Source: the human T2T-CHM13v2.0 reference genome, Homo sapiens. From it: a stretch of 64,000 nucleotides of DNA. How positions within the stretch are numbered: the first letter of the stretch is position 1; the number at the start of each line of letters is the position of its first letter. A program made the translations under genes and the position numbers. A model generated the notes under the pieces. That model saw only the letters and a program-made list of their open reading frames with translations, was not told where the DNA came from and did no database searches. Location of the stretch: assembly GCF_009914755.1 (NCBI RefSeq), contig NC_060935.1; one strand, 5' to 3'. This document shows, one piece after another, positions 32,299-52,259 of this stretch.

Positions 32299-34311
32299 TC
32301 TGAGGCCCCACTGCCTACAAACTGAAAATGAAATCTGCCAAAACGGGTTGGGGAGCTGCCACTCCTGAACATAGCTCGTCCCAGTCCCTTCTAGGCATGA
32401 GGTCCCTCCACACCTGGGGGAGACCCTCCCCCAATCTCCCAATGCCACCTTCTTTGCCCCTCCAGTGTCAGGTTGAAGCTCTGGGAATGAACGTTTGAAG
32501 TTCTAAACAGGATTTCTTCCCAAGTCCTCAGTCACTCAACGGCAAACTATGAAGTGTCCCCAGCCTGTGAGGCTCCTCCTGCAGCCAAAACTGGGAGGGG
32601 GCACTGAGTCTGGGCCCAGGCTTTCTTCCAAGGCTAGGACACTCGGGCCCTTCCGTGGCTCTCCCAGTGCAGCCCTGGGCTCAGCACTGCCCTCCCAATG
32701 TCCCGGAAGGAGGCCGCTGTGGCCCTGGCTCCGAGGCCCAGGCCCAATCCATCTTCCCAGCCAGTGACTCGCTCTGACAACAGGGCCGAGCTGCCGTGGC
32801 ATTTGCCTCTGATCTCCGCTGGCCAGGCATTTGTCAGGCAGCCTGCTAGGAATGAAGAATGGGCGCTTGGTGAGGCACAGATTACCCGCCCCAGAGGCCC
32901 CTGATGAATTGCAGTTCAGAGCTCAGCTGCCTGGGGCCATGGATCAACAGGGAGGCGACTAATCTCCCCCACAGCAGCCCTGCCGAGCAGAGCGGAGGGA
33001 GGGTGGAAGCCTGGAGAGTCTGGGAGGAGACGCTACACCACCCCCTGCCCTGGGCCTTTCTTCAGCACAACACCCCTCACGCCCTCCACTCCCACCCGTC
33101 TGTCCAGGGAGCCCACTTCCTTCACTAGACGCAGCGCCAGTGGAGACGCTCAGTTCTTTGGGGGCACCCCTTCCTTGCTCCCTGTACAAGAGAGAGAGTT
33201 CGGAATTGCTGGGGGGGTGGGGTGGAGATTTCTCCTGATGCCCCAAAGCATTTAGAAAAACTGGAGGCCCATGCCAGGGGCACCCTCACCCTGGACAGGA
33301 GATCAGCCTGTAGGAGCTAGCGATCGGCCTGTCTGAGGCTCTTCTTCCTCTGATGGGGAAGTCCAGGCCACCCAGCCAGGAAGTGCCTGCCAGAACCCAG
33401 CAGAAGCCCTCCTGCCCCCATGCCCACAGGGCTCTTTCTCTGGAGCTGCTCAGAGGCTGGATGGGTTTGGATGGTGGACCCTTTAGCAAGGGATAGGTGT
33501 GGGACTGGCTGCTGGCTCACAGGCTAATTCTCCTGGCCCTCCCTGGGCTTCCTACCCAGCTCTTCCTGTTCATGGGTGCTGTGAGGAAGGCCAGGACTCA
33601 GCGGACTTAGCAGAGACCCTGCAACCCCATTGCCCAAGGCCAGCACTTCTGGGCCTGGGGGCTCTGGAAGTGCTCTCCCAGGGGCTGGCAGGGCAGAGCT
33701 ACCTGCCCTCTCCCCAGATGGTGAAACAAGTCCAGTTTCCCTTGGGCCCTCACCTGCTCCGCCTGGCTGCGTTCCCCTCACCCTCACCTGGACATGCTCA
33801 CCTACTAAGCTGTGACTGTCACCTTTTGCTCCACTTCGAGTTCACCTGGGGAGGCTGAACAACCACCGATGCCCCATCAGTTGAATCAGACTCACGGCAG
33901 CTGGGGTTGAGAAGAGCTACTCAGGCAAAGCCTCTTTCCCCTCCCACCCTACAAACGTCCCTGCTTGACTTCTCTGCCCCTCCCCATGTCCTGCTGTTGT
34001 TGATTTACTCAGACTACAGGGTTAGAGGCGTCGCCGTTCCCCAGGAGTTGGGGAAGATGTGTAGATCACGTGGGGTCTCTGCCTCTGGGAAGGAATGAGC
34101 ACTTAAGACCCCACAGCCAAGAATTACCCCAGAGTGGGGCAAGTGCTGTACCTGGGGGGTGAACAAGCGGAATGAGAAGAGCTGAGGGCTTTCCTAGGAA
34201 ATCACGGCACCGGGCGGACCATTCAGGAGCCAGGAGCCCCTCCTCCCGGCAAAGGCCCTTGGAAAGATTGAGTTGAAAACACACAGCTGGAGGGGATTCG
34301 GCGCAAGCCAC

Positions 34312-34344
34312 GTGCTCCCTCTGGTGGTCAGAAAGGGAATTGCG
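34312..34344 (-). promoter_or_regulatory. Candidate CTCF site (core plus upstream motif)
   Basis: Minus strand CGCAATTCC-N5-TGACCACCAGAGGGAGCAC. Confidence 0.7.
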
Positions 34345-36469
34345 GCCTCAGACGAAGACTGTCATGGTCGGAGTTGTCTGATTAAGAGTAATTCACCCAA
34401 TAATTTCCTAGGCTTGGTAGATCTTTGTGACTCAATGCAGGTCTGAATTGTGGAAAATCCCAAAGTGAAGTGAAAGTTCAGTAACTGCCAGCCCATGTGA
34501 CCTTTCTGGAGAGAGAAGGGAAATGTTCACAAGAGTCCTGGTTAGGAAGCAGGTCCCAGGCCTCTGAACACCACCTGGGGCCATGGGGCTCGTTAAGCCT
34601 CCGCCTGCAGAGGCCACCCCCCAAACCTCATATTCAACCGGGCTGGGGAAATCTGGGTACGTGGTGGTTTGAAAAGCCCCTCAGGTTCAGACCTGATAAA
34701 GCCTCACATTTCACAAGGAGGGAGGCCTTGAGGCAGGGTCAGCGAAGGGAAGTGACTCATCCAGAGCAGGTGGAATTTCCCTCTGAGGGTGGCAGGCTGG
34801 ATTGTCCTCTGTATGGAACATTCTAGAACATTCTAGAAACGTGATTCTTCTCCAGTGCTCTTACTTCTCCTGGGGTGGGCCACAGGTCTGAATACCCCCT
34901 CTTCCTGTTTGCCTTGCTGCTGCATCCAAGAGGCTTTGGGAGCCTCCCTCCTCCTGAAAGCCCCCCTGGCTAGACCTGCCCCATTCAAGTTCATTTCTCC
35001 CACCCTCGAGGGAGAGCTCAAGTGTGTGCCTCTATCTCCTGCAAAGAAAACTGAATTCCATTTAAGGGTTTGGCCTACACCAATGAGTCCACATTTGGAG
35101 TGGGGTGTCACAAGGACTTGGTGCTGAGTTGTAAGTCACCTGGCCTTCCCCTGCCTGGCTCCTGGTCTCCTCTGGAGTTTCTCCCCACAACCCCAGGCCT
35201 TCTCTGTTTCCCCTTCACTCTCCAAACCCACAGGCAGTCAGTGGGTAGTCCACCTCCCTGCCCCACCAACCGCTTCCCGTCCTTTGGATGTTCGTGTGGT
35301 GGGAAGAGCTCTGGAAGGGGAGCCAGAGACCTGCAGTTTACCTCTGGCTCCGACTCAGGCTGGCCATGTCACTCTGGATAAGCCACGGCCTCTCTTAGAG
35401 CCTCGGTTTCCCCTTCTGTAAATTGAAGACGGTCTGTTTTGCTCTCTAAGGACCCTTCCCTGCTCAAGCCTTCTGTGTTTCTAGGAGAGTTGGTGGTTAT
35501 CAGGGACTGGGGGCAGTGGATTAAGACAAAGAGCTTAATTCCCAAGTGGAGTGAGGTCTATCCTGCCTCTGGCCCCCAAACACACCCTGTTCATTTCCTG
35601 GTCCTGTAGCTTGGTTCTCCTGCCAGTTCTCCCCTCTCCTCCCTCAAAAGCTTGCAGGCCCAGATGAGGAAGCCAGACGCTAGGTGGTGCCAGAATCCCA
35701 CAATCCCTCCAGCCTTCGAGGCCTCTGAGTGAAGGGAGGGAGAGGAAAGTTGGGCTCCTTCCTGAGTGCAGAAGGTCCCAGAGGCCTCCCTGCATGGCCA
35801 TGGCCTTGGACTCACAGCAAAGGGGGCATGGGCATTAGGAGTCGGGCACATTAGGAGTCCGCACTAGGTGGAGCGACCTGGAAGCATCTCAGGCTGAGGC
35901 TGCCCTGGGTGGGTCCCTGCCTGCATGGACGGGGGCTGGAGCAAGTGTGACAGTGGTCTCACTCTCACCATCTGTTCCCTGGCCCCAGGCCCTGGAATTA
36001 ACCAACCCTCCAAATAGGTGGCCCCAAGAGTGGAAAGAGGTGGCCCGAGCTTAGTACCAGGAGGGGGCTGGGAAGAGGGCTGGCTCCTTCAGGACATGTG
36101 CAGAGGCCCAGCACCAGGCTCCCCGGACCCACCCACCTTGGCCCAGGGGGGTACATATGGAAAACGGCAGAGCACAGGAATGTGACCACACACAGGCCCA
36201 TCTTGGTAGCCTGGGGCCTCTCCACAGCAACTGCTAAGCAGGGTCGCTTCCAGGAACCCAACAGTGGTGCCTGGGGCAGAGGCCTCATGGGTATCCAATG
36301 GGCTGTGGTTTTGACCTCTGGGCCTTTCAGACTTCCCAGGTGTATAAAAGCCAGGCTGAGGCCTCTGTCCCCAGGGCTTCTGCCAGTTCAAGGGGTGTGA
36401 GGAGTGGCCTACAGATGACAACACTGAACTTCTTGCTTTTACAGGCAGACAGGTGCCTGAGCAATTAAT

Positions 36470-36784
36470 TGAAAAAACAAATGAGACCCGGCTGTATTTG
36501 TACTTGAGCTTGGAGAGGCTGGTGGTGACAGAGGAGGGAGACAGGCAGGCAGGTGAGGGAAGCAGCGGTCTCTGACGCCGGCTTTATTATAAGCATGAGG
36601 TGGCACGAGGCAGGCGTTGGCGATGCCACCTGGGGGTCACATTGAGTCTGGAGCTTCCTTCAGCCCAAGCGCTGGCAGTGACGGGGACAAAGGTCTAAAG
36701 CCCAGGGAAGAAGGGGAGGCGCCAGAGGCAGGGCCATGCTTGGCTTCCCAGCTGGCCCCAGTGCAGTGGGTGGCACCGCCGAGG
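36470..36784 (-). other. FXYD2: FXYD2 terminal non-coding exon (3' UTR)
   Basis: Acceptor tcttctcag|CCTCGG at 36785/36784; AATAAA 36583-36588 and AATACA 36493-36498; 3' end approximate. Confidence 0.8.
36583..36588 (-). terminator. FXYD2: FXYD2 polyadenylation signal AATAAA
   Basis: tttatt on the + strand within the last exon. Confidence 0.75.
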
Positions 36785-37083
36785 CTGAGAAGACAAAGGC
36801 AGGATGGGGTTGGGTGGGAGGCAGCAGAGGTTGGGGTTTTACTTCCCCCTTGTCCATCTCACTTTTCTCCAGGGCTCCTCTGTGATCTCCTGCGGCACAC
36901 ACTCCACGCCAGGCCCTTGGCCATCATTTTAAACACACGATGGGTGACAGACCACCTGGCTGATGTGTGGACGACCCTAAAATTCTTATTTACCGAGTCC
37001 AGGAGCCAGAATTCTTCCCTGTTGCTCCCAAGCCTGCCCTGCCCTCCCCGCACCTTCCCCAGGCCCTCCTAGCATACCTGCTG

Positions 37084-37108
37084 TTACGGCTCATCTTCAT
37101 TGATTTGC
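37084..37108 (-). CDS. FXYD2: FXYD2 last coding exon (R)QINEDEP*; exon extends to 37078
   Basis: ccaccag|G CAA ATC AAT GAA GAT GAG CCG TAA CAGCAG|gtatgc. Confidence 0.95.
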
Positions 37109-37163
37109 CTGGTGGGGGAAGGAAAAGCAACAGGTGAGAGGGCAGGGGGAGGGGTGGGTCTAG

Positions 37164-37772
<609 letters not shown>

Positions 37773-38040
37773 TTCTCTCTCTTTATATAAGGCTGGACCA
37801 TAGGCATTTAAGAACCTGAGTCAGTCAGTCAGTCAGCAAATATTTACTGGAGCAGATCCACGGTGGGCTGTTGGCATATCGAGAGTAGCAGCAGAGACTG
37901 GGCCATCATGGTGCCCCCAGCACAGCTGCCCGATGAACACCTGGAGAAGGATGGCAGCAACTCCAAAGTGGAGCCCCTTGCTTAGGCCACCTGCCTCCTG
38001 TGCCTATGTGATCAGCTGCCACCCGGCACTGCCCTCCGGG

Positions 38041-38212
38041 AGCTGCCACGGGCAACATGTGAAAATGGGGAGACCTGCAGGACTGTGGCCCGAGCCTTGG
38101 GGTGGGCTGGCAGTGGCACACGTAGAGAGAGCTGCCATGGGCAACACGGGAAAATGGGGAGACCCGCAGGACTGTGGCCCGAGCCTTGGGGTGGGGTGGC
38201 AGTGGCACACGT
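38041..38212. repeat. 89-bp-period tandem duplication (2 copies)
   Basis: agctgccacgggcaac...ggcacacgt at 38041-38123 and 38130-38212. Confidence 0.9.
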
Positions 38213-38719
38213 GCATTAGAAGTCCAGAGCCCACAGGTGTGCTTGCTGTATCTTCTTTCCATGGGTTGTGTTTTCTGTGTATTTTTCTTTGGGTTGGACC
38301 AAAACAAGTCAATGTGCAGTTATTAAGCTCCTGCTGTGTGCCCCTCGGGGCTTGAGGATACATAACTCTCTTTGTCTCCCCCAGAACACTCCGAGTCTGC
38401 ACTGGACCGTTCTCAGAGCGCTGTCCTGACTGCCATGTCTTTGGATGCTAGCCCTAATCTTGTGAGGCAGGTGGGATCATCCCTATTTAACAAATGAGTT
38501 TGGGACCATGGTTAGCAGCGGGGGGCCTAGTCCCCCTGCCTGGCCCTCCGGTTACCCAGTTACCCCGTGGGTTTGCTCTCACTTCTGCGGCTCCTCCCGG
38601 GCCCACTGGAGGGTGCACTTGAGCAAGCAGGAACCTCACACTGTGCTCCCAGCGAGCCTGGCACCCCACCGGGCACCCATTCCCACATCCTGCAGTGGGG
38701 GGCGTGGTGGGGAGGCTCA

Positions 38720-39271
<552 letters not shown>

Positions 39272-41065
39272 CTAAAACCATTGCCAGCAGGCTTCTGCTC
39301 CAGGCGGCTTCAGACACGCTCAACTGGGGACCAAATACCGAGTGTCCGAGGGGGATCCGTGCTGTCTGGGGGGCCTCTGACCACTCCGGAAGGGTGGCTC
39401 TCTCCTGCTCCTTGATTCCTACCATGGTAGAAAAGGCCAGGAGAAGCCTCTCCCATTAGACTCCCAGCGGCCTCTCTCCACAGGACCATTTGGCTATCAG
39501 GTGCTTAGCAGCTATTTGGGAAATGCATGAATAAATAAAACAGAACCTTAAAGTTTATCAGACAGAAGGAGGAAGCCGAGCCCAATGTGTAGACTTGTTC
39601 AAAGTCCTAATGAAAGCTGAGACAGACCTCCTTTCCTGCGTTACCATCCTCAGGGGAAGCAGATCTAGTTAAGAAACATTAATATATAGTGCTGGTCAGG
39701 CACCGGGCAAAAACTAACAAACCCTAACTCATCTAACCATTATGGCAACCTTATGAGGCGTCAATGTCATTCTGGTGTAATCCACAAGAGGGTGGAAGTG
39801 CAGAGAAGAAATTCCCCCACAGTTATACAGCAAGTCAGGGGTAGAGCTGGTGTTTGAACCCAGGAAGCAGGGGGCTGAGAATGGAGGTGCATAAGCCCTT
39901 TGATCTGCCACCTCTCAATGGCGGGAGGGAAGGAGCCCGTTAGAGGCAAGGTCCTGCCCCTGCCTCTGGTGGCCTCCCCCGGATTTGGAGCCGCTCAGCA
40001 GGCAGGTCTCACAGTGGTGCCCTGCAACTGAGTACACTTGCCCCGGACAGCCAGACGGTGGCCTGGCCAGGACGCTTCTGCCACAGCTGAGGGCCGCTAC
40101 TCTTTCCTGCCCTGCCGGAGCCCCTTCTCGCACGAGGGAAGTGGAGCCCGAGGAGGAAGGAACGCGCAAGTTAGCACTTTCCGGGCTGTGCCAAACTGTG
40201 CCCCTGAGCAGCAGTGAGACTTAGGGTCTGTCAAGCCCAGCTGTCCCCAGCGGCCAGTCCCTGGGCCAGGAAAGGACAGGCCAGGAAGAGTCAGTGCCCA
40301 TCCTGACGGGCCTGAGGTGCTGGGTGCTCAGGGAGGCCATGAAGGACCCAGGTCCCACACAGAAGGCCGTCAGGGCTGTCTTCCCAGATTTGGTTCAGGC
40401 CTTGTTTAAGGTCATATGGGGATTTAAGTGTCAGAGCAACAGCTAGACGCCAGCTGAGGCTTCCCCACACGCCCCAGGAAACCTCCTCCTCCGTGGCCAC
40501 CTGGCCCTGAGCCGCTTGCTGAGACCCTCCCTGCCCAGCACCCTCCCCTTTCTGCATCTGGCTCAAAACCCACCTCTGTCAGCAAGTGCCCCTCTTGGTT
40601 TCCAGGCCTGAGTCAGTTCCTGTGACAGGAAGCCTTTGGAGAGTGTGACTTGAACTTGGCGGGCTCTCACCCCAAATCCAGCCTAGGAAGGCTGACCAGA
40701 GGGGCCTGCTCCTTCCCCAGCCAGATGGACGCCGTCTGCCTCCCGCCCAAGTTCAGACGGTCTAGCAAGATGCATTGAACTCAGGGCGGGTGTGTGCCAG
40801 GAGGCCGAGGAGGAACGCTCAGCTCTCCAGCTTCTATCTGCTGCCTTTCTGCCACTCAAGCTATCTTTCTTTGGGGTTAAAGCAGGGTCCTCCTTTAAGT
40901 TGCAAATTTTCTTAGAGAGGAGGCCGACAGGAAGAGGGGCTGGGTACTCTGGAAGGCTGAGGTGGCAGGAGAGGGAAGAGTAGGGTCCAGCTGACCCCAC
41001 AAAGGCAGGCCAATCAGAGCCACCCAGCATTGCACACGCCCGGGCACGCACACCAGCACACTCAC

Positions 41066-41090
41066 CACCGTCCATCGACAACCCAGTCAT
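41066..41090 (-). CDS. FXYD2: FXYD2 exon 1a (gamma-a, MTGLSMDG+1 nt)
   Basis: ATG ACT GGG TTG TCG ATG GAC GGT G|gtgagt; joined CDS 25+39+75+37+25=201 nt = 66 aa plus stop. Confidence 0.96.
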
Positions 41091-41194
41091 TTCCCCAGGT
41101 GAATGGGCTGCCTCCACTCCCCTCTTCCTGCTGTCTCTGCTTTTTGGAGAGTGTCTGGCTGCCTCCACGGGGTGGCCGGGGACGAGGTGCGGGC

Positions 41195-41227
41195 ATTAAA
41201 CATTAACAGTGCCAGGTAATATTTACC
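41195..41227 (-). promoter_or_regulatory. FXYD2: Two HNF1-type sites in the FXYD2a proximal promoter
   Basis: GTTAATGTTTAAT (41195-41207) and GGTAAATATTACC (41215-41227) resemble GTTAATNATTAAC; HNF1B is a known FXYD2a regulator. Confidence 0.8.
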
Positions 41228-41340
41228 CTGGTCACAAGAAAAGCTGCAGTGTGGATGGAGGGGCTCCTTCTGCAGGGTGAGGACGTGCGTGGGGAGGCAG
41301 GGGCAGGGAGGAGCTGGCTGAGTTTCCAAACCTTCCCAAA

Positions 41341-41351
41341 GGAAATTTCCA
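41341..41351 (-). promoter_or_regulatory. TonE/NF-kB-like motif TGGAAATTTCC upstream of exon 1a
   Basis: Fits TGGAAANNYNY; motif match only. Confidence 0.3.
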
Positions 41352-42339
41352 AAGAGAAGGGTTGGGATGGGTCAGCAGTCGTGCTGTTCTGCCAGCTGGG
41401 GAAGCTACAGCTGGGGCGGTGGGAACAGGAAAGTGGAAGTTGCACAATCTCTTCAGTGTACACTGTACTTGGGAGTTTCTGGGGGCAGTGGCCCACAGTG
41501 GCCCCCAGCCCAGGCAGGGCCCACCGCACCAGCCACCATGGATGCCGCCACTGCAGCTGGTGTTCCTTATGTGGTACTGGAGGCTTTCCTGCAGTGGTCC
41601 CTAGGAGCCTGGCCCACTGCTCCCCCACCACATCCCTGGAGCACCGCCAAAGCTGACCAGCAGTAGATCCTCCAGAAGGGCCCTTCATCTGTCATCCTAT
41701 TCACCCATCAACGTGCACCCTGCAGGTTACACCTCATTCAGAAGGGCTTCAGTCATCCCCAACTAATTTCTCCTTCCCTGCCGCCCTGGCACTTCCTCCT
41801 ACCACCATTTGGCCTGGCTCTCGGATTGTGTCCTTGCCAGTTTACCATGGAGCATGCAGGATCCTTAAGGACAGGGCAAGACTTTCATCGTGGGGAAAAC
41901 CCCCTGCGTTTATGGTTTACCAAGCACTTTCCTCACTGTTTTTTCTCCTCAAGCTTTATGTTTCCCATTTTACTGATGAGGCAGGTGTCTAAGGCACAGA
42001 GAGGTAGGGGCCTTGCCCAGGGTCACACAGCCAGTGTGGGGGAAGTGGAGACTGACAATCAGGCCTCCTGCTGCAGGAGGCAGATGCTTTCCACACCTCG
42101 CAGGCAGCCTCCCCACTCCGCTGTGACCTCCTTCGCCCCAGGACTCCTGTGCCGGGTAGTCACAGGTACTGTAGAATCCTCGTTGAGTTCTAGTCCATTG
42201 AATTGGCCTCCAGAAAAGGCTGAAGCCCAATGGCCACAAAACAGCCAAGGTCAGTGGCCAGCGGACAGCAGGGGAGCTTGAGCCCTTCTGAAGGGAGCCA
42301 CTGTATCCATGAATCCTCCCCAAGCAGGGGCAGGGCTTG

Positions 42340-42525
42340 GCACTTGAGTTCACACCCTGGCCCTCTCACTTGCTAATGGTGTGGTCTCAGTCAATGACTT
42401 CACCTCTCTGTGCCTCAGTCTCCTCATCTGTAAAATGGGCACAGTACCCAGCTCCTAGGGTGGTGGTGAGGGGAAGTGAGATAATGCATGCAAAGAGCAT
42501 ATCCCAGGGCCTGGCACACGGTGAG
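42340..42525 (+). mobile_element. MIR SINE
   Basis: cacctctctgtgcctcagtctcctcatctgtaaaatggg. Confidence 0.75.
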
Positions 42526-43166
42526 TGGCATCATTTTTACTGTTATATGTGTGTTGATTGAAGAAATGACAAGCATTAGCCTTTGGCAAATGTTTGCTGT
42601 TGGACATGGAAAAGCCAGCCACCCTCCAATGAAAATGGGCACGAATGAGTGAGACGGAGAGAATGGCATGGCCCTGCAGATCAGGCGCTGCAATACCCGT
42701 TCAGCTCCCTTCTGCTTCTGGAGCCAAGAAATATATATTCGTGCAAACATCACAGCAGAGCCAGCGTTTGGTGAAGATGGACCACGTGCCAGGCTCTTGG
42801 AATGCACTGCATCACTTAATTCCTACTAATGGCGTTTTACAGATAAAGAAACTTGAGGCTGCTCATTTGCTTTCCACAATAGCCCCTGGACGTGGCCAGG
42901 GCACTGGGTACACCAGAAAAAACGAGGGCAGGAAGGTGAAGGGACTTGCCTGAAACACACAGTTAATGGCAAACTGGAGGTAGAAAGCCCAGATCCTCCA
43001 AGATGTGCTACCAAAGCTACTGCCATCTCCACACAAGACAAGGGTGCTCCCTTTATTATACAGGATTGTGTTATCTTATTGCATTTGGTCTGTATTTGTA
43101 AGCCTCCATGGAGTCTTTCGGGAATAATAAGAGATGTAAAAATAAGTGGGAAGTTAAATAAATTCA

Positions 43167-43237
<71 letters not shown>

Positions 43238-43254
43238 GTCTATCTATCTATCTA
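43167..43254 (+). repeat. Compound microsatellite (TCTG)8(TCTA)9TCTG(TCTA)4
   Basis: Read directly. Confidence 0.97.
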
Positions 43255-43464
43255 TCCATTGACAACCCAGTCATTTCCCCACCCAAATGGACTGTCTCCA
43301 CTTGCCTCTTCCTGCTGTCTTTGCTCCTTGGTGGGGTGGCTGGGGATGAGGTGGGGGCATTAAACATTAACAGTGCCAGGTAATATTTACCCTGGTCACA
43401 AACAAAGCTGCAGTGTGGATGGAAGGGCTCCCACTGCGGGGGGGAGGAGGTGCATGGGGAGGCA
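43255..43464 (-). pseudogene. Duplicated FXYD2a promoter and pseudo-exon 1a
   Basis: Aligns to 41071-41299 with a ~21-nt deletion; 47-bp identical core; encodes MTGLSMDR* (43248-43274); no splice donor. Confidence 0.92.
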
Positions 43465-43469
43465 CCAAC

Positions 43470-43497
43470 AGATGGATGGATAGATAGATAAATAGAG

Positions 43498-43546
<49 letters not shown>

Positions 43547-43578
43547 TGGATGATAGATCGATCAATAGATAGATGAAT
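43470..43578 (+). repeat. (TAGA)n/(GATG)n microsatellite
   Basis: Read directly; reverse complement of the left (TCTA)n array. Confidence 0.97.
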
Positions 43579-43590
43579 AGGAAGCAATAG

Positions 43591-43996
<406 letters not shown>

Positions 43997-44402
43997 TAAA
44001 GAAGGCATTATTATCACCCCATTTCATAGAGGAAGAAACTGAGGCCCAGATAAGTTAAATAACTTGCCAGAGGTCAGATGGCCAGAGGGTAGGGGAACCA
44101 AGATTTCAAGCCAGCAGCCTGGCTTCTGAGTTCCTGCATCTCTAAGGGACGGATGGACAGACAAGTAAATGAGGCAGTTGGACAGCTGCCTTCCCAGCCC
44201 TCGCAGCTCAGATATGCTCTGCACACACGTTACAGCAGGCCAGTGACTCCGTATGGAGATGCTCTTTTTTGGAAATTCTGCCTCTCTTCCTTTCTGCTTT
44301 TCCTGCACTTCTGGGGAGCTTGTGGGTGCACTTGAAAGGGACGGGGCTGGCACCTGTGTTAGAGCCTGAGCAGGGAGGAGGAATGGGGCTCAGAGGACTC
44401 AC

Positions 44403-44421
44403 CCAGGTACCACCTGTCCAT
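44403..44421 (-). CDS. FXYD2: FXYD2 exon 1b (gamma-b, MDRWYL+1 nt)
   Basis: GCC ATG GAC AGG TGG TAC CTG G|gtgagt; strong Kozak context; gives a 64-aa isoform. Confidence 0.96.
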
Positions 44422-45170
44422 GGCAGGAGCTGCTGGTTGTGTCCAGGAGTGCAGGAGAGCAGGGAGGTGCTGCTTGCCTGGGGCCTGGATGGAGAGTGGC
44501 ACTCCCCCTCTTCACACTTCAGGTGAGCCCACAAACAGGAAGAGACACAGGGAGGGAGGAGGGGCTGGCAAAGGAGCCCTTACCTCGTGCCCACTTGCTG
44601 GGGCGGGTTGGGGCAAGGGATGCACGTGAAAGCCAGGGGAGATTTTCTGACCTCCACCTGGCACTTGAGGATGGGCAAGCTGTCAGATGCAGCAGAGCCA
44701 ACCACAGCCCCCGCCCTGGCCCTCTCCCTCGAGGGGCTCCACACTGCAGCCAGCCCAGGGTGCCCGAAAAGGGTACAGGAGCCGGGAGGAATCAAGGAGC
44801 CCACTCTTCCCCAGGCCCCTGGGCTGGTGGCATGTGAGGGAGACCTTTAGGGGCATGTGTGGGTCCCCTGAGCTTTACTCCGCTGCACCTCTGCCCTCCA
44901 GTCCAGCTGGGCCGTTGGCCGGAGGTATCCTGCCCAAGACCCCGGTCTGTAGCTAGGCATCCCCTGAGACTGGGAGGCACAGCTGCAGCCTCTCAGAGGG
45001 GTGGGAATGGTTTCCAGGACCCTGTCGTGGCACCTGAGGCACCGGCCCCAGCTTCCTGTGTCGTTCTGGCAGTTGGCAGAGAGATGGGGAGCAGCTGCGG
45101 GGCTGGGAGCCGGAGCTGTGATGGGGGCCGCTCCTGTGGCCTGCCCTTTCCTCAGCTGGGACCCCTCACT

Positions 45171-45208
45171 CAGCCCGCAGTGACTCACCCAGCCCACAGT
45201 GACTCACC
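45171..45208. promoter_or_regulatory. Tandem AP-1 sites in a 19-bp direct repeat upstream of exon 1b
   Basis: TGACTCA at 45181-45187 and 45200-45206. Confidence 0.5.
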
Positions 45209-46322
45209 CAGGCTGTGATGTCAGGCCTGCCTGCCACACCTCAGAGGGCTCAGCTGGAGACACCAGCAGCCTAATGAGTCCTCTGGGGGCTGCTGGTTGG
45301 TATCAGAGGGGAATGGCCAGAAGACAACACTGCTAGGCCCAGGGCATGGTCAGAGCCAGAAGCCAGCAGGGAGCCACAGGGAGCCCCACCAGGCGGGGCA
45401 GGCCACTAGGCAGGGTGTCCTACCATGCAGGGCAGCCCACTACACTGCCCAGGCAGTCTCTGTTCCTCGGCCACCAAGGCCTTGCCCACAGCAAAGCCAC
45501 AGTGAGCAGTCTCTGTGTGGCTGACTTGGGACCACAGGGTCTCCGTCAGGTTCCTGTAGCCGCCCTGGCACGGCCACCCCAACGTGGACACTGAGAAGCA
45601 GAGTTAGGAGGGGCTGGCTCTGGCCCCAGCCTCTGACCCGGGCTCTGGTCACTCTGACTCCCGCCTCTCTGTCCCTCCTTTGCAACACTCCCTGTCCTGA
45701 GGGGAGGACTCATGACGTCCCAGGGAGCCCTCTCAGGGCTGAAATAGAGACCAGGAGGTCTAAGAGGTGCTATTTGTTATCAGGATGGGCTGAGATCGGC
45801 GCTGGGGCCCCTGAGCACAGCCCTGACTCCAGGCTCTCTGCACCTTTCCCTCCAGACCACCCTGGAGGCAGGGCCAGACCTGTCCTGGGGTGGATAACAG
45901 CTCGGCTGGCAGGCGGGCCTGTCCCATGCTCCCAAGTGGAAACCTGCCCACTCAGCCCAGAGCGGCTGAGTGGAAATTCCCCAAGCTGGGGTTAGAGAAG
46001 TTTACAAACCTCGGGACTGGGTGAGACTTAGAGGTACCTGGTCCAAACATATTCTAAGTGGTCCAGAAAAGTGGAGCTCTCAGCCAAATCCCCCCCACCC
46101 ACACCGCCAGTATACACACTCTGTTCCCTGCCCGCCACCAGTGTTGTGAAGGAAGGCATCTCTATCTCAGAGCCCGGTGTGATTGATGGTCCAACCAGAA
46201 AGGACACCAAAGCCATCCCATCCAAACCCCTCCCTTTAAAAGTTGCTCCCTCTCCTGCTCAAAATCCTCAGAGAGGGCTCGGATGATACGCAAAATCTTT
46301 GTGTGTCCAAAAAAGAAGCCCC

Positions 46323-46616
<294 letters not shown>

Positions 46617-46719
46617 AAGAAGCCCTTCTCATTCTGGCTCTAGGCACCTGTGAGCTGGTCCCCCACCTCCCCGCCCTGCTTTCTGCTCCAGCCATGCTGG
46701 CCTTCTTGACACCCCTCAC

Positions 46720-47045
46720 CCTCCAGGACCTCCGCACCGGCTGTTCCCGCTTCCTAAATGCTCAGCCTCCACAGGGCTTCCTGCTCGGTACACGCTGCCT
46801 TCAGGGCTTTCTTCAAAGCCCTGATTCTGGACATCCCTGTATAAAATGTTCACACCCACTGCCTCAGCCTGGCTTTTCCTCTGTGGCACTTGTTCTTAAC
46901 TAAGGTATGTATTTCCCTTATCTTGTTTGTCCCTCTCCCAACTAAAATGTAAGCACCAGGAGAGCAAGGATTTTTGTTTGTTTGTTCATTCCCCCATGCC
47001 TGGAACAGTGCATCGTGGGACCCAGTTTTATTAAATGAATGAATC
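46720..47045 (+). mobile_element. L2 3' end fragment
   Basis: aatgtaagcaccaggagagcaagga...cctggaacagtgc...ttaaatgaatgaat. Confidence 0.65.
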
Positions 47046-50000
47046 AGTCCCAGGCAAAAATCAGGCAAAGATGGGGACAGGATAGAGGGGAAATCACTTC
47101 TCCCATGCTGCAGGCAGACCTAGGACTTGCCTCAGGCAGCCTCCTTCCATGCTGTCGCCTGCCCTGTGAGGAGTCACAAGACCCGATTTGCCCTCACAGA
47201 GGCAGCAACCCTCACCTTGCTGACAGCTCCCCCAGAGTCCCTCTCGGGGTTCTCTCTCCCTCCTCTTGCACCCCATCCCCCCACTCCCCTAACCTCCCCT
47301 TCCTTCTCCAGCCCAGCAGCAATTTTCAGAAATTGTCCTGTTTGTTCTTTGGGGGAAGCCCAGGCATTTGTTAAGTCAAGCAGGTCCCACCCCTCTCGCT
47401 TCACTCATGTTTAAGTCCTTCTCAGACTTCCTTCCTGTCCTCCCCCAGCTAGCTCAGGTCATGGGTCCTAGCTAGCACTGGGGACAGGGAACCCCTCTCT
47501 GAGACACCTGCTCTCCTGCAGAGAGGTTGCGGCCCTTCCACCTGTGGCCCATGTTCCTGAGAGCAGCTCAGTTCAGGAGGGTCTCTCCTCCTAGACACCA
47601 CGCAAGGCACCCTGAGGGCCAGACACACCCATGCATAAATCCCCTTTCATCCTGAGACTTTGCTGAGGACTGCCTGACCCTGGGCAAGGGCACCCCTCTG
47701 GGTCTCCTCCCACCTGTAAAATAGGGTAATAACACCTACCTTGCAGTATTGTTGTGGGAACAGAGGCAAGGTAGGTCAAGCGTTTGGCCAGAGAAGGTCC
47801 TAAAAACTGATGGCTGTGTTTTCCTTACTCCGAACTGAGCCCCCCAGGAGACAAGAACACTCACAGCAATCCCTTCCCTTGGCTCAGTCCCCAGTTGCGG
47901 TGATCTCTAAAGCAGGCCTCTGGGAGCACCCTGCCCTGGTATGATCCTGCTGGCCACAACTCACCCTGCATCTCCAGCCTCCCTTTCTTCTCCACACAAA
48001 ACCAAGAAACCTCCTTTGTCTAATGGTTCCAGGATGGAGACAAAGGAGCATCCAGCTGTGCTCTCCTGTTCTCTGCAAGACCCAGAGCTCTGGGAGATGT
48101 TGGGAGGTAGAGAGAGGCAGTGCCCACTCCTGGATGCGTCAGCACTGTCACAGCTGATGGGACCGTGCCCTCAGTGGCGAGGCCTCCATCTCCCCTGTCT
48201 CCCCTAGGCAGGCCTCCCTTTTGTCTCCTGACTCCTAAGTCTCAGGGCAGTCATTTGGGGTGGTCGTTGCTGGGTTGGTGGGGCAGGGAGGAAATAGGCT
48301 GGAATCCAGCTGACCTCTGTTTTCCTGGTGATCAAAGGCAGAGGCCCTCACCACCAGCTTCCCAGAATGGGGTTCTCCAGCTCCGCCAGCTCTGGCCTTT
48401 GTGGGAGTTTACAGCCTTGAACTCCAGGTCCCCAGATCAGTTCCTCCTGGTGTTGGCTTGCAGCTGGAAAGGGGCTCCAATGAAGCAGAAGCCAGAAGCA
48501 CCTAGAAAGCCATGACCCCAGGCCCAAGTCAGTCCTCAGCTGCATAACCCGTATGGCCACTGGGCAGGGAAAGTGGCAGTTCCCAAGCCCCATTTGTCCC
48601 ACTCAGAGGTCCTGAATCCTGAGGAACGCTGGCTCCTGCCTCCTGCTATGGTTGCAGGTGCCAGGTCCCTGGGGTCTTATAAGGCAGGGCTGGAAGGAGG
48701 TGGGCCCCAGAGGGTCCATTCCTTAAGTGTTGGCTTCAAGAAGGCCTGAGCCATGGTGCACAGAGGTTCTGAGAACTGCCAAAGGGCAATGTACTCTGAG
48801 AGTCAAGGTCACCAGCTGGTGACAAGGGCAAACCCATTTGACCCACCTCCCCCACAGTGAATGCCTTGGAGAGAAATGCATTCTTGACTGTTCTCAGAAC
48901 TCACATCCAGGCTTGAACCACAACAGAGCCCATTCCTCTCCAGCTTTTCTTGGTTTTCTCCTCCCAGTAACCAAACTCCCTCTCACCTCTGGGAGAGGCT
49001 CGCCACCTCCGGGAAGACCTCGCGGAGCAAGCCCACCCCTGGTTACTCTTACCTTCCCTCCACCACCTTCCGGATGCCACTGACATGGCTTGAATGGCCA
49101 GCATGTGGCCGTGTCACCATTCTCTTCATTTATAGCACAGATTGCCAAGTCCCTGGCCTCCTTGAGGCCTCAGGTCGGGTAAGCTGTTAAACGTTTGTAC
49201 CTGCACTGAGCCTGGTGCCCACTCTCCACACTTGGCAGCAATTCCACCCTATTCCAGGGTCTCAGTGGTTCCAAAGAGCTGCTTAGAGCCTCCCAACAAT
49301 TCAGCCAGGCAGGCTGTGAGATGCCCATTTTACAGAGGACACTGCAGGTGGTCTGCAAACAGGTCAGAACATGAACCCAAGTCTAACAGAGACAAGAGGA
49401 ACCCGGCCATCAGAGAATGAGGAGACAAGGAAATGGATAGTGATGCCAACATTTATAGCATAATGGCTACATGGAGAATTGTCACGGTGCTTCGATGTCC
49501 ATTGTATCACTTTGACCCTGTGAGATAACAGAAAACATCTTGATGCATTTATTTTATAGGTGATGAAACTGAGGCTTAAGTGGCTTTTCCAGGGTTACAC
49601 AGTGAGCAGGAGGCCCAGCTTACCCCAAAGCTAGGAAGGACTTGATTATTCAGAAAAGGAAACTGACAGAGAGGCTGGGGTCTTTCCAAGCTCACACTGT
49701 TAGAGCAGAAGGGACCTCGGGGATGTTCTGAGCCTCAGGCTCTACCAGACTGCCTCCAAGCCCAGCTCAGAGGTAGGAAACCGTTCTTCTGGATAGTGCA
49801 GGGGGGCCCACCCCCTCCAGTCCCTGCCATCCAGGTCCTTCAGGACATGCGATCACAGCATCACCTGCTCTGCCATCATTGCCTTGGCAGGTGCCCCACT
49901 GTTGTGCAACCAGGCCCGGGGCTGGGCTGGCCCCATCAGATCAACAGCTGGTTGGCTTGAGCCGGCTGAGTCTGCCCCCCTGGAGCTCAGCTGTGACAGC

Positions 50001-52259
50001 AATAAATCACACTAATGGAGAGAGGTGGCCATTCCTTCTCTGTGGCCTGGAGACAGGTTTTTCCAAAGCTCCTCCCCTGGCTCAGGCAAACACACCTGAC
50101 CTTTCTCTCGCTGGGCCCAGGGTGAGGCAGAGCAGCCAGGAACAAGGTGGGGTGAACCAGACAGAGCTGGAGTGCTCTCCCACCCCTGCTTTGCCCAGCC
50201 TCCCCGCCAAGCCCATGATTCCAAGCAAGGTAAGGCCCTCCTCCCAGAGGAAGGGGCCAACAGCCCGGTGACCTTGGAGTGTGCTTCGCCTGGCACTCCC
50301 CTCACACCGCTCCCTACAGCTTGTACTCTGCCTCTGACTCTCTTCCAAGAACAATTTGGCAAGTTCTAATCTACATCTTGCAAAAAAAAAACAAAAAACA
50401 AAAAACAGAGAGGTAGGAGGGCCACAGCACCTGGGGTCCCAGAAGGCAGACTGACCTATTCCTACAGCAGGGGTAAGTAACGCAGAAAACCTCCAGGCAA
50501 AGAGACATGGAGATCTTCGAAATGGAATGGGGGGTGGAGGGAGTCACTGGGAGGCAAAAGGTGTGGGACACCTGAGGTTACTGAGACAGGGAACTTGGGA
50601 TTCCCTTCTGGGAAATGACACAGCATGGCAGCTGTCCTTCTTATTCAGTCAAGCTACATTGCCTCATTAAACCAAATCACAGCTACAAACCAGTGCCACA
50701 TGCCTGGAGGCTGAGTGGACACTCCTGGTCCTCCTCATGGAGATATATAGCACTCTGAGTTCTGATCCAGCTCATCTGTGTGAAGTCCTCAAACAAGCAC
50801 ATAGTAAGTGCTCCATAAACTTCAGCTGCTCATTTTTTTAATTATTACCATTTTGACCATCATTTCTTCGATTGTTCTTCATGTGTCTTGTTTCCAGACC
50901 ATTAGACTCCCACAGGAGGCTCCTTGGAGCATGGTCCAGCTAGTTTATGTCTTGAAGGGGCAGCCATGCTCCAGGTGCAGTCTTGGGAGCCATCTGATCA
51001 CTGTCCCTTCTTCTGAGCATCTGCCTGCTGAAGGAGGCTAGGCCATGTGCTGACAAGCACTATGGACAGACAGCCCGGGGTCAAGTCCTAGCTCCTCCAT
51101 CCCCCAGCTGTGTAACCTGGACCAGGACGATTGTATCTCTGACCAATCTCAGAATATAGCTGGATTACTAGGAGGAAAACTAAGTGAGTGCTTAGAGGCG
51201 GGCAAAGTAAGGATAACCATTTGTAGATGATGTGCTAGAGATGCTGACCATCATTCCTTACTCTTAACATAATTATTATGAGAAAAATTAGAACCTCCTC
51301 ATTGGACTTCCTTATTCCTATGTCGAAGTATAATGTTCTGTTTTTACTAACGTATGGGGGGCGGCACACACAAAGCTTTGCATGTCTAGGGCCTCTAGGG
51401 ATCTCAGCCTGGCCTCGCTATGAAATTTCTGCAAGGCCTGTCAATTCCCTGATGTATCACGAGTGTTCCCGAACAATAAGCTCATTTACCAGGTCTTGCT
51501 GTGACCAGATAGTTTTTAATCGCCATGATCACTGGGTTGACAGGTTGAGCTTGAGCTCTACCATAAGCCTGTGTCTTTCCAAAGGCCTGGGGGACCGAAG
51601 GCAGAAGCAAGAGCACACGTAGAGAAGGCACCGAGCAAGCGGATCTGTGCGGTTCTTCGGTTCTAAACAACTTGCGGAATCCAGGCGGACTCAGGGCCTG
51701 TGTGGCCACTGGGCAGGGAAGGTGGTGGTTCCCAGGCCCATCGAAACCACAAGGAGCACTGACTTCTGTCTCCTGCTATAGCTTCAGGTGCCAGGTTCAC
51801 TGGGGTCTTAGAAGTTGGGGCTGGAAGGAGGTGGGCCCAGAGGGTCCCGCTCCTTAAGTGCTGGCTTCAAGATGGAAGATATTAAGACGTTCCAGGGGTC
51901 GATTCTTTTTTCAAGACCCTAAGATGTTCCAGGCTTCTGTAGAGCAGGCACAGTCCTTGCCCTCCAGGAATTGTATCAATAAAGACACAAAACACTAGAG
52001 GCAGAAGCTGCACACAGGCAACCTCCACGCAGAATCTGCCCACATCTGTGTTGGTTTGGCCAACAGTGGTTTTTAGAAAGTTGAGTCAGAGTGTCTTTGG
52101 GAGGACACCGTAGGTGACTGCAGGTGCCATGCCCCATCGTCACTCCAGCAGATTCACATATTGGCATTACCTGCCTGGTCTCTACAGTCTGGATGCCAAG
52201 TATGAAGTGTGAATATAAAGGCAGCAAACAAGTGTGATTGGGGCACAAGAAAGGGATTC

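What the first reader, a model, noticed from the sequence alone, without database searches (positions are those of the whole stretch)
43162..43578. Fold-back cassette: copied FXYD2a promoter and exon 1a clamped between inverted microsatellites
Seen: 43255-43464 duplicates 41071-41299 in the same orientation, ~2.2 kb upstream. Left flank is (TCTG/TCTA)n and right flank is (TAGA)n, its reverse complement. The symmetry extends to the inner junction (TCTATCCAT/ATGGATAGA) and outer ends (ATTCATCT 43162-43169 / AGATGAAT 43571-43578). The microsatellite replaces the splice donor and supplies a stop: MTGLSMDR*. Inference: the arms can pair (>50 bp) in ssDNA or in gamma-b/read-through pre-mRNA, looping out the promoter copy. 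STR length or inversion between the arms could tune a shadow promoter/enhancer that governs gamma-a versus gamma-b output. I know of no description of this arrangement but cannot search.
Basis: partly seen in the sequence, partly recalled or inferred. Interest (0 to 1): 0.8.

Follow-up and report, generated by a model that had tools for sequence, protein, structure and literature searches.

The report
Dead FXYD2 promoter copy between inverted microsatellites
A 210-base decayed copy of the start of the kidney and pancreas gene FXYD2 sits 2.2 kb upstream of the real one between two mirror-image microsatellites; it is most likely a repair scar whose kept HNF1 sites match an upstream HNF1B binding site already in print.

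Summary
Window 43255-43464 is a same-orientation copy of 41071-41299, which holds the first 20 nt of the FXYD2 gamma-a coding sequence, its 5'UTR and about 143 nt of proximal promoter. Identity is 184 of 209 aligned columns (88%), with a 20-nt gap. The whole assembly holds only these two copies. The copy is bracketed by (TCTG)8(TCTA)n and (TAGA)n arms that can pair.

The copy looks dead as a promoter or exon. The 20-nt gap removes the annotated gamma-a start site, the splice donor was never copied, the reading frame is MTGLSMDR*, and all 7 CpGs of the original are gone.

Both HNF1 sites survive unchanged inside a 47-nt identical run. One of them (43379-43391) coincides with the "-2235" HNF1B site that a 2016 paper reports as ChIP-positive and as contributing to reporter activity.

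The inverted arms are best read as the scar of a templated insertion at a break in a palindromic GATA-type microsatellite. That class exists at 8 or more other loci. Nothing supports a regulatory clamp, and the shadow-promoter reading is contradicted. Cross-species dating could not be done.

The parts
41071..41299 (-). Template (original): the first 20 nt of the gamma-a coding sequence, the 5'UTR of exon 1a (exon 41066-41156) and about 143 nt of proximal promoter.
   Evidence: Hub gene table; alignments; translation MTGLSMDGG.
41148..41167 (-). 20 nt present in the original and absent from the copy. It contains the annotated gamma-a transcription start (41156). Its 3' part is one of two copies of GGCTGCCTCCAC (41106-41117 and 41157-41168).
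   Evidence: Gap in the alignments; repeat found. Without an outgroup I cannot tell whether this was a deletion in the copy or an insertion in the original.
41195..41227 (-). Original tandem HNF1 sites: A at 41195-41207 and B at 41215-41227. Site B covers -59 to -71 of the start, matching the published '-69' site.
   Evidence: PMC5325337 passages.
43162..43254 (+). Left arm: ATTCA (TCTG)8 (TCTA)9 TCTG (TCTA)4. It abuts the copy directly, and its last unit runs into TCCAT, which is shared with the template (5-nt microhomology).
   Evidence: unit-by-unit print.
43255..43464 (-). Decayed copy of the gamma-a exon 1a start plus proximal promoter: 88% identical, 1 CpG where the original has 7.
43248..43274 (-). 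Pseudo-exon reading frame MTGLSMDR*. The stop comes from the first TAG of the microsatellite, and no splice donor was copied.
   Evidence: sequence.
43359..43391 (-). Copied tandem HNF1 sites: A at 43359-43371 and B at 43379-43391. Both are identical to the original and lie inside a 47-nt run of identity. Site B covers -2223 to -2235 of the gamma-a start, matching the published '-2235' HNF1B site.
   Evidence: PMC5325337.
43465..43471 (+). 7 nt (CCAACAG) between the end of homology and the right arm. It is filler or a remnant of the target site.
43470..43578 (+). Right arm: (ATGG)2 then (ATAG/AGAT)n with 12 perfect units, degenerate at its outer end (TGGATGA, TCGATCAA). It is the reverse complement of the left arm's TCTA part.

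Best explanation
This is a relic of an old local templated insertion. A break at or next to a GATA-type microsatellite, most likely at the centre of a palindromic (TCTA)n(TAGA)n repeat, was repaired by priming on a 5-nt microhomology (TCCAT) in FXYD2 exon 1a, 2.2 kb away. About 229 nt were copied through the 5'UTR into the proximal promoter, and the new strand was then rejoined to the other half of the repeat.

The copy has no working start site, no splice donor and almost no CpG left, so it is dead as an exon and as a promoter. It did carry the tandem HNF1 sites with it. These remain intact and act, at least in reporter and ChIP assays in ovarian cancer cell lines, as a distal HNF1B-bound element about 2.2 kb upstream of the gamma-a promoter. 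It is an enhancer made from a duplicated promoter.

Shown: the duplication, its limits, its decay and the retained sites. Taken from a paper: binding and reporter effect. Inferred: the repair mechanism and that the palindromic repeat was there first.
For: - **Two copies only, no flank paralogy.** This fits insertion of a copied segment, not a transposable element or a larger tandem duplication.
- **Junctions.** The left junction shares TCCAT between the arm end and the template. The right junction has 7 nt of filler.
- **Palindromic repeats exist as a class.** 9 loci have a gap of 0-150 nt, and 8 of them have spacers of 20 nt or less. My hand estimate from the run counts expects about 0.2 such loci by chance.
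- **Germline templated insertions at microhomology are documented in humans** (PMC8421209, passages).
- **The copy is decayed.** All 7 CpGs of the original are non-CpG in the copy, and the 20-nt gap covers the annotated start.
- **The HNF1 module is retained.** Both sites are 100% identical. The probability that none of 18 substitution events falls in the 33-nt pair is 0.028.
- **Published binding.** HNF1B sites at -69 and -2235 were both ChIP-PCR positive in TOV-21G cells, and reporter activity dropped when either was destroyed. HNF1A Cut&Run signal is reported at the FXYD2 locus in beta cells, but the figure was not visible to me (PMC10480445).
Against: - **No outgroup genome was available.** The order of events (repeat first, copy first, or both together) is not shown.
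- **The run of identity is weak evidence of constraint.** It is only borderline once adjacent mismatches are treated as single events (p 0.10). Gene conversion could explain it equally well.
- **The binding evidence is a single study.** It used cancer cell lines with over-expressed HNF1B. The ChIP primers are in a supplement I could not open, so cross-amplification between the 88%-identical paralogs cannot be excluded.
- **A small numbering mismatch.** The published positions differ by 2166 nt, while the two site-B copies are 2164 nt apart here.
- **No sign of a general process.** The two look-alike loci with non-repeat spacers between inverted GATA arms have single-copy spacers (0 of 2 with a paralog).
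Confidence: 0.55

Rival explanations
1. The copy is a purely neutral scar. It does nothing in vivo, and the published -2235 signal reflects paralog cross-amplification in ChIP-PCR and an over-expression reporter setting.
For: The CpGs, the start-site region and the donor are all lost. The event-wise run test is not significant (p 0.10). There is only one supporting study, in cancer cell lines, and its primers were not visible to me.
Against: Both HNF1 sites are untouched while 18 substitution events hit the rest (P 0.028). The reporter loss on mutating the distal site does not depend on ChIP primer specificity.
Confidence: 0.3
2. The insert and the right arm arose together in one replication-based template-switching event (FoSTeS/MMBIR or fold-back). 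A stalled end in a simple (TCTA)n repeat copied the exon 1a/promoter segment and then the repeat itself in inverted orientation. This is a rival only for the origin, not for the function.
For: The arms are reverse complements and both inner ends carry TCCA-type units. Inverted segments joined at microhomology are typical of such events. Fold-back formation of inverted duplications in humans is documented (PMC3907307, search listing and abstract only).
Against: The internal order of the arms is not mirrored: (TCTG)8 occurs only on the left. Outer-flank symmetry is at chance level. Ready-made palindromic repeats are an existing class, which makes the simpler one-break model sufficient.
Confidence: 0.25
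3. One reading: the arms pair in single-stranded DNA or in pre-mRNA, or recombine to invert the insert, so that repeat length or orientation tunes a shadow promoter and the gamma-a versus gamma-b choice.
For: The predicted hairpins are very stable. The insert lies in gamma-b intron 1 and carries HNF1 sites. Repeat runs of 12-13 perfect units are likely to vary in length between people (general knowledge, not tested).
Against: The annotated start region is deleted, there is no donor and the hub table lists no transcript from the copy. The 204-242-nt spacer and the 48-55-nt near-perfect match are unfavourable for cruciform extrusion and for homologous inversion (thresholds recalled). In the transcribed strand the (CAGA)n part cannot wobble-pair with (UCUA)n, which limits the duplex to the UAGA/UCUA part (reasoned from the sequence). 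No data of any kind link the repeat to expression.
Confidence: 0.04
4. The identical 47-nt core is a recent gene-conversion tract between the paralogs, not a result of selection.
For: The 69-nt block 41191-41259 has only one two-base event, against about 82-85% identity outside it. The paralogs are 2.2 kb apart in direct orientation.
Against: The tract would have to coincide with the only known functional motifs. The probability of sparing the predefined HNF1 pair by chance is 0.028.
Confidence: 0.15

Closest known systems
Germline templated insertions at microhomology (MMBIR / FoSTeS / synthesis-dependent end joining)
   Same: The segment was copied from a nearby template. There are only two copies, no target-site duplication, no poly-A, 5-nt microhomology at one junction and a short filler at the other. 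Such events are reported as germline variants in humans (PMC8421209).
   Different: The events catalogued in that paper are mostly short, inverted and within 100 bp of their template. This one is about 229 nt, in direct orientation, 2.2 kb away, old (K2P 0.13) and sits between inverted microsatellite arms.
The published distal HNF1B site of FXYD2 at -2235 (Oncotarget 2016, PMC5325337)
   Same: It has the same position as HNF1 site B of the copy (43379-43391, which is -2223 to -2235). It was reported as bound by HNF1B and as contributing to reporter activity.
   Different: In the passages I read, the paper treats it as a predicted site in the promoter region. It does not describe it as part of a duplicated promoter and pseudo-exon, and does not mention the flanking repeats.
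Shadow (redundant) enhancers and enhancers derived from promoters
   Same: A second copy of the same transcription-factor module sits near the same gene.
   Different: Here the second module arose by copying the promoter itself. Endogenous redundancy or necessity has not been tested.
Palindromic AT-rich repeats and palindromic compound microsatellites as fragile sites
   Same: The arms are inverted, AT-rich and able to form hairpins. I found 8 or more palindromic (TCTA)n(TAGA)n loci with spacers of 20 nt or less in the same genome.
   Different: The present spacer is 204-242 nt, so the locus is no longer a near-perfect palindrome. Fragility of GATA-type palindromes is inferred, not shown.

Membership tests
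Templated insertion (local copied segment) | The inserted segment has a template elsewhere, and only that segment is duplicated. | tested here: met
   Two places in the whole assembly. The paralogy ends at 41071/43255 and 41299/43464.
Templated insertion (local copied segment) | Microhomology or short filler at the junctions, with no transposon hallmarks. | tested here: met
   TCCAT is shared at the left junction and there are 7 nt of filler at the right. There is no direct flanking repeat and no poly-A.
Templated insertion (local copied segment) | An empty site exists in outgroup species. | not testable with these tools
   No non-human vertebrate genomes are held. states that the assembly has no relatives here.
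HNF1-dependent distal enhancer of FXYD2a | HNF1 recognition motifs are present. | tested here: met
   Site A is at 43359-43371, 2 mismatches to a consensus I recalled; there are 3 such sites in the 64 kb. Site B at 43379-43391 is identical to the promoter site.
HNF1-dependent distal enhancer of FXYD2a | The factor occupies the site, and activity is lost on mutation. | not testable with these tools
   Reported in PMC5325337: ChIP-PCR in TOV-21G cells and a reporter in A2780 cells.
HNF1-dependent distal enhancer of FXYD2a | Sequence constraint on the module. | tested here: inconclusive
   A 47-nt identical run: site-wise p 0.028, event-wise p 0.10, HNF1 pair spared with P 0.028. Gene conversion is not excluded.
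Alternative (shadow) promoter with its own first exon | The start-site region is retained. | tested here: not met
   The 20-nt gap removes original 41148-41167, which contains the annotated start at 41156.
Alternative (shadow) promoter with its own first exon | A splice donor joins the exon to downstream exons. | tested here: not met
   Homology ends 5 nt short of the exon end and its donor (41071 versus exon end 41066). The frame is MTGLSMDR*, followed by GT-free repeat.
Cruciform-forming palindrome or foldback element | Inverted arms with a short spacer. | tested here: not met
   The arms are present, but the spacer is 204-242 nt.
Cruciform-forming palindrome or foldback element | Multiple genomic copies (foldback transposon). 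| tested here: not met
   The insert has only its template as a relative.
Known structured RNA | A match to a curated RNA family. | tested here: not met
   0 Rfam matches at E up to 1 in 42900-43700.

The most novel reading that the evidence does not exclude
The HNF1 module captured between two arrays of consensus GATA-factor sites (each AGATAG unit is a WGATAR motif) is a length-polymorphic regulatory element. Arm length, and possibly hairpin formation in gamma-b or read-through pre-mRNA (UAG-rich duplex, a favoured ADAR context), would modulate FXYD2a output in distal nephron and beta cells, making it an expression-linked microsatellite for a gene tied to magnesium handling and to beta-cell state in type 2 diabetes. 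More broadly, palindromic microsatellites would be hotspots that capture copied regulatory DNA.
Probability: 0.06. Interest if true: 0.6.

Novelty: new member of a known kind. Interest (0 to 1): 0.3.

Why it matters
FXYD2 is a direct HNF1B/HNF1A target. It is linked to renal magnesium wasting and is a reproducible beta-cell marker of type 2 diabetes (PMC6119663; PMC10480445).

Knowing that the distal -2235 HNF1B site is a decayed paralog of the proximal promoter has practical consequences:
- ChIP, ATAC and reporter data at the two sites can be confounded by the 47-nt identical core.
- Primers and short reads need paralog-specific variants to tell the sites apart.
- Variant interpretation in this region should treat the two modules as possibly redundant.

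It is also a clean, datable example of a promoter fragment copied into a palindromic microsatellite.

Tried and rejected
- **Repeat family:** rejected. The insert has two copies in the whole assembly.
- **Larger tandem or segmental duplication with later deletion:** rejected. There is no further paralogy on either side.
- **Retrocopy:** rejected on the sequence. The copy includes about 143 nt of untranscribed promoter and has no poly-A.
- **Outer 8-mer symmetry as evidence that unique flank was inverted along with the arm:** rejected. 148 of 500 shuffles score as well.
- **A general class of inverted GATA arms holding copied inserts:** not supported. The spacers of the two look-alike loci (L003 at C1:73560126-73560304 and L004 at C1:104583161-104583324) are single copy, 0 of 2. 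The other two of the five loci at 150-300 nt (C2, C12) are mosaic palindromic repeats by their printed matches; I fetched them as L005 and L006 but did not analyse them further.
- **Known RNA family:** none.
- **Literature that led nowhere:** Adalat 2009 and Ferre 2011 are not held. Searches for FXYD2 gene organisation, duplication or tandem repeat found nothing on this structure. One search on palindromic tetranucleotide repeats returned only unrelated organelle-genome, Y-chromosome-palindrome and cancer papers.

Full report
**What is there**

FXYD2 lies on the minus strand. Its gamma-a first exon is 41066-41156 and its gamma-b first exon is 44403-44497 (hub table). Window 43255-43464 is a same-orientation copy of 41071-41299.

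A global alignment gives 184 matches, 25 mismatches (17 transitions, 8 transversions), a 20-nt gap and a 1-nt gap. Ungapped identity is 88.0% and the K2P distance is 0.132. The copied piece holds the first 20 nt of the gamma-a coding sequence, the 5'UTR and about 143 nt of proximal promoter.

A sensitive self-BLAST of 33000-50000 finds no further paralogy on either side. The other hits in that region are three Alus, an 84-nt intronic tandem duplication, a weak 83-nt inverted match (41964-42042 / 42361-42439, 69%) and the self-inverted arms. A search of the whole 3.1-Gb assembly with the 210-nt copy finds only the copy and its template, so neither is a member of a repeat family.

**The flanks**

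Tandem Repeats Finder reports 43166-43256 as (ATCT)22.8 and 43470-43574 as (AGAT)26. Unit by unit:
- The left arm reads ATTCA (TCTG)8 (TCTA)9 TCTG (TCTA)4 TCCA.
- The reverse complement of the right arm reads TCTA TCTA TTGA TCGA TCTA TCA TCCA TA (TCTA)12 TCTC TCTA TTTA TCTA TCTA TCCA TCCA TCTG.

The arms are complementary over 79 nt at 86%, 55 nt at 96% and 48 nt at 98%, with 204-242 nt between them.

As single strands they fold into one long hairpin. The transcribed-strand RNA folds at -181.7 kcal/mol against -110.8 +/- 5.2 for shuffles (z -13.6). The plus-strand DNA folds at -95.8 against -48.7 +/- 4.6 (z -10.2). That follows automatically from inverted repeats and is not evidence of function.

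**State of the copy**

- The reading frame is MTGLSMDR*, with the stop supplied by the repeat. The original reads MTGLSMDGG followed by a gtgagt donor.
- Homology ends 5 nt short of the exon end and its donor (41071 versus exon end 41066), so no splice donor was copied.
- The 20-nt gap corresponds to original 41148-41167, which contains the annotated gamma-a start at 41156. I cannot tell whether this is a deletion in the copy or an insertion in the original. In the original, its 3' part is the second of two copies of GGCTGCCTCCAC (41106-41117 and 41157-41168).
- All 7 CpGs of the original are non-CpG in the copy, which has a single CpG. These account for 7 of the 25 mismatches.

Together these argue that the copy is not a working promoter or exon.

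**What survived**

Both HNF1-like sites are identical in the two copies. Site A is ATTAAACATTAAC at 41195-41207 and 43359-43371. Site B is GGTAATATTTACC at 41215-41227 and 43379-43391. They lie inside a 47-nt run of identity.

The statistics on that run are mixed:
- Shuffling mismatch positions site by site gives p 0.028, or 0.007 after removing CpG columns.
- Treating adjacent mismatches as 18 events gives p 0.10 for the run.
- The probability that no event hits the predefined 33-nt HNF1 pair is 0.028.

This is suggestive of constraint but does not exclude a gene-conversion tract.

**Literature**

A 2016 Oncotarget paper (PMC5325337, passages read) predicted two HNF1B sites at -69 and -2235 of the FXYD2a start. 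It found both positive by ChIP-PCR in TOV-21G cells. It also saw HNF1B-driven reporter activity fall when either site was destroyed.

With the start at 41156, -69 falls inside site B of the promoter (-59 to -71) and -2235 is the upstream end of site B of the copy (-2223 to -2235). The published spacing is 2166 nt and the spacing here is 2164 nt.

In the passages I read, the paper does not describe it as a duplicated promoter. Its primers and construct limits are in a supplement I could not open. With 88% identity and a 47-nt identical core, cross-amplification cannot be excluded.

A 2023 study reports HNF1A Cut&Run signal and HNF1A motifs at the FXYD2 locus in beta cells (PMC10480445), but I could not see the figure. 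Reviews repeat that HNF1B activates gamma-a and not gamma-b (PMC6119663). The primary papers (Adalat 2009, Ferre 2011) are not held.

Searches for FXYD2 with gene-organisation, duplication or tandem-repeat terms found nothing about this structure.

**How rare is the arrangement**

I searched the whole assembly for (TCTA)4, a gap, then (TAGA)4:

| Gap | Loci found | Note |
|---|---|---|
| 0-150 nt | 9 | 8 have spacers of 20 nt or less |
| 150-300 nt | 5, including this one | 2 are mosaic palindromic repeats |
| 300-450 nt | 3, including this one | |

The tool warns that such counts are lower bounds.

Run starts in one register number 1388 forward and 1373 reverse. Scaling by four registers, which is my assumption, gives roughly 5,500 runs per strand. 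By hand calculation that expects about 1.5 chance pairs per 150-nt bin and about 0.2 for spacers of 20 nt or less.

So an inverted pair some 200-300 nt apart is about what chance gives, whereas truly palindromic (TCTA)n(TAGA)n repeats are strongly enriched and form a real class.

The spacers of the two look-alike loci with non-repeat spacers are single copy. Of the three non-repeat spacers tested, only the FXYD2 one has a template.

**Most likely history (inferred)**

1. A palindromic (TCTA)n(TAGA)n repeat broke near its centre.
2. The 3' end finishing in TCTATCCAT annealed to TCCAT in exon 1a (41071-41075).
3. It was extended through 41299.
4. The new strand was joined to the other half of the repeat, leaving 7 nt of filler (43465-43471).

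Germline templated insertions at microhomology are documented in humans (PMC8421209), although the catalogued ones are mostly shorter, inverted and closer to their template.

A one-step template-switch or fold-back event that made the right arm at the same time is a serious rival. Independent births of the two arms seem least likely, because both arms abut the insert.

From the divergence (K2P 0.13; non-CpG mismatches 18 of 194) and recalled neutral rates, the event is tens of millions of years old. I could not date it, because no non-human vertebrate genome is available here.

Nothing supports a clamp that tunes promoter choice:
- The start region and the donor are missing.
- The spacer is long for cruciform extrusion, and the near-perfect arm match (48-55 nt) is short for homologous inversion. 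Both thresholds are recalled from general knowledge.
- In the transcribed strand the (CAGA)n part cannot wobble-pair with (UCUA)n, so the RNA duplex is limited to the UAGA/UCUA part.
- No Rfam family matches.

The arms are arrays of AGATAG units, which fit the WGATAR GATA-factor motif (recalled), and the UAG-rich duplex would suit ADAR. These remain untested speculations and are kept as the novel case.

**Verdict**

This is a new member of a known kind, namely a templated-insertion relic that donated a transcription-factor module. Its interest is modest. The main practical point is that the two HNF1 modules of FXYD2 are paralogs, which can confound assays and may act redundantly.

Noticed in passing
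window 43654-43971: An Alu sits 80 nt beyond the right arm (masked 43655-43965). It is flanked by a perfect 16-nt direct repeat at 43654-43669 and 43956-43971, most likely its target-site duplication. Related Alus lie at 37472-37772 and 46325-46617.
   Followed up: partly
window 38040-38212: An 84-nt tandem duplication (38040-38123 and 38129-38212, 94% identical) lies in the FXYD2 intron between the exons at 37271-37307 and 38818-38892.
   Followed up: no
window 41106-41117 and 41157-41168: A 12-nt direct repeat, GGCTGCCTCCAC, occurs twice around the gamma-a start, with 0.02 expected by chance. The second copy lies in the 20 nt that the upstream paralog lacks.
   Followed up: partly
G000 C3:29749816, C9:37311983, C9:141164991, C10:25621060, C12:67359981, C13:81714603, C16:11674154, C23:15839224: Eight palindromic (TCTA)n(TAGA)n microsatellites have spacers of 20 nt or less, against about 0.2 expected by my hand estimate. 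Several have a TATA-like centre.
   Followed up: partly
window 50837-50849: This is the only other site in the 64 kb within 2 mismatches of the recalled HNF1 consensus (TTTAATTATTACC). It lies inside the FXYD6-AS1 span. Mononucleotide shuffles give 0-3 such sites, so it may be chance.
   Followed up: no
window 45165-45211 and 45377-45442: Short tandem arrays lie upstream of the gamma-b exon: a 19-nt unit x2.5 and a 34-nt unit x1.9.
   Followed up: no
window 41098-41101 versus 43282-43285: Four consecutive differences (GGTG in the original, CCCA in the copy) lie just upstream of the ATG. On the coding strand the original reads CACCTG (an E-box-like hexamer, recalled) and the copy does not.
   Followed up: no
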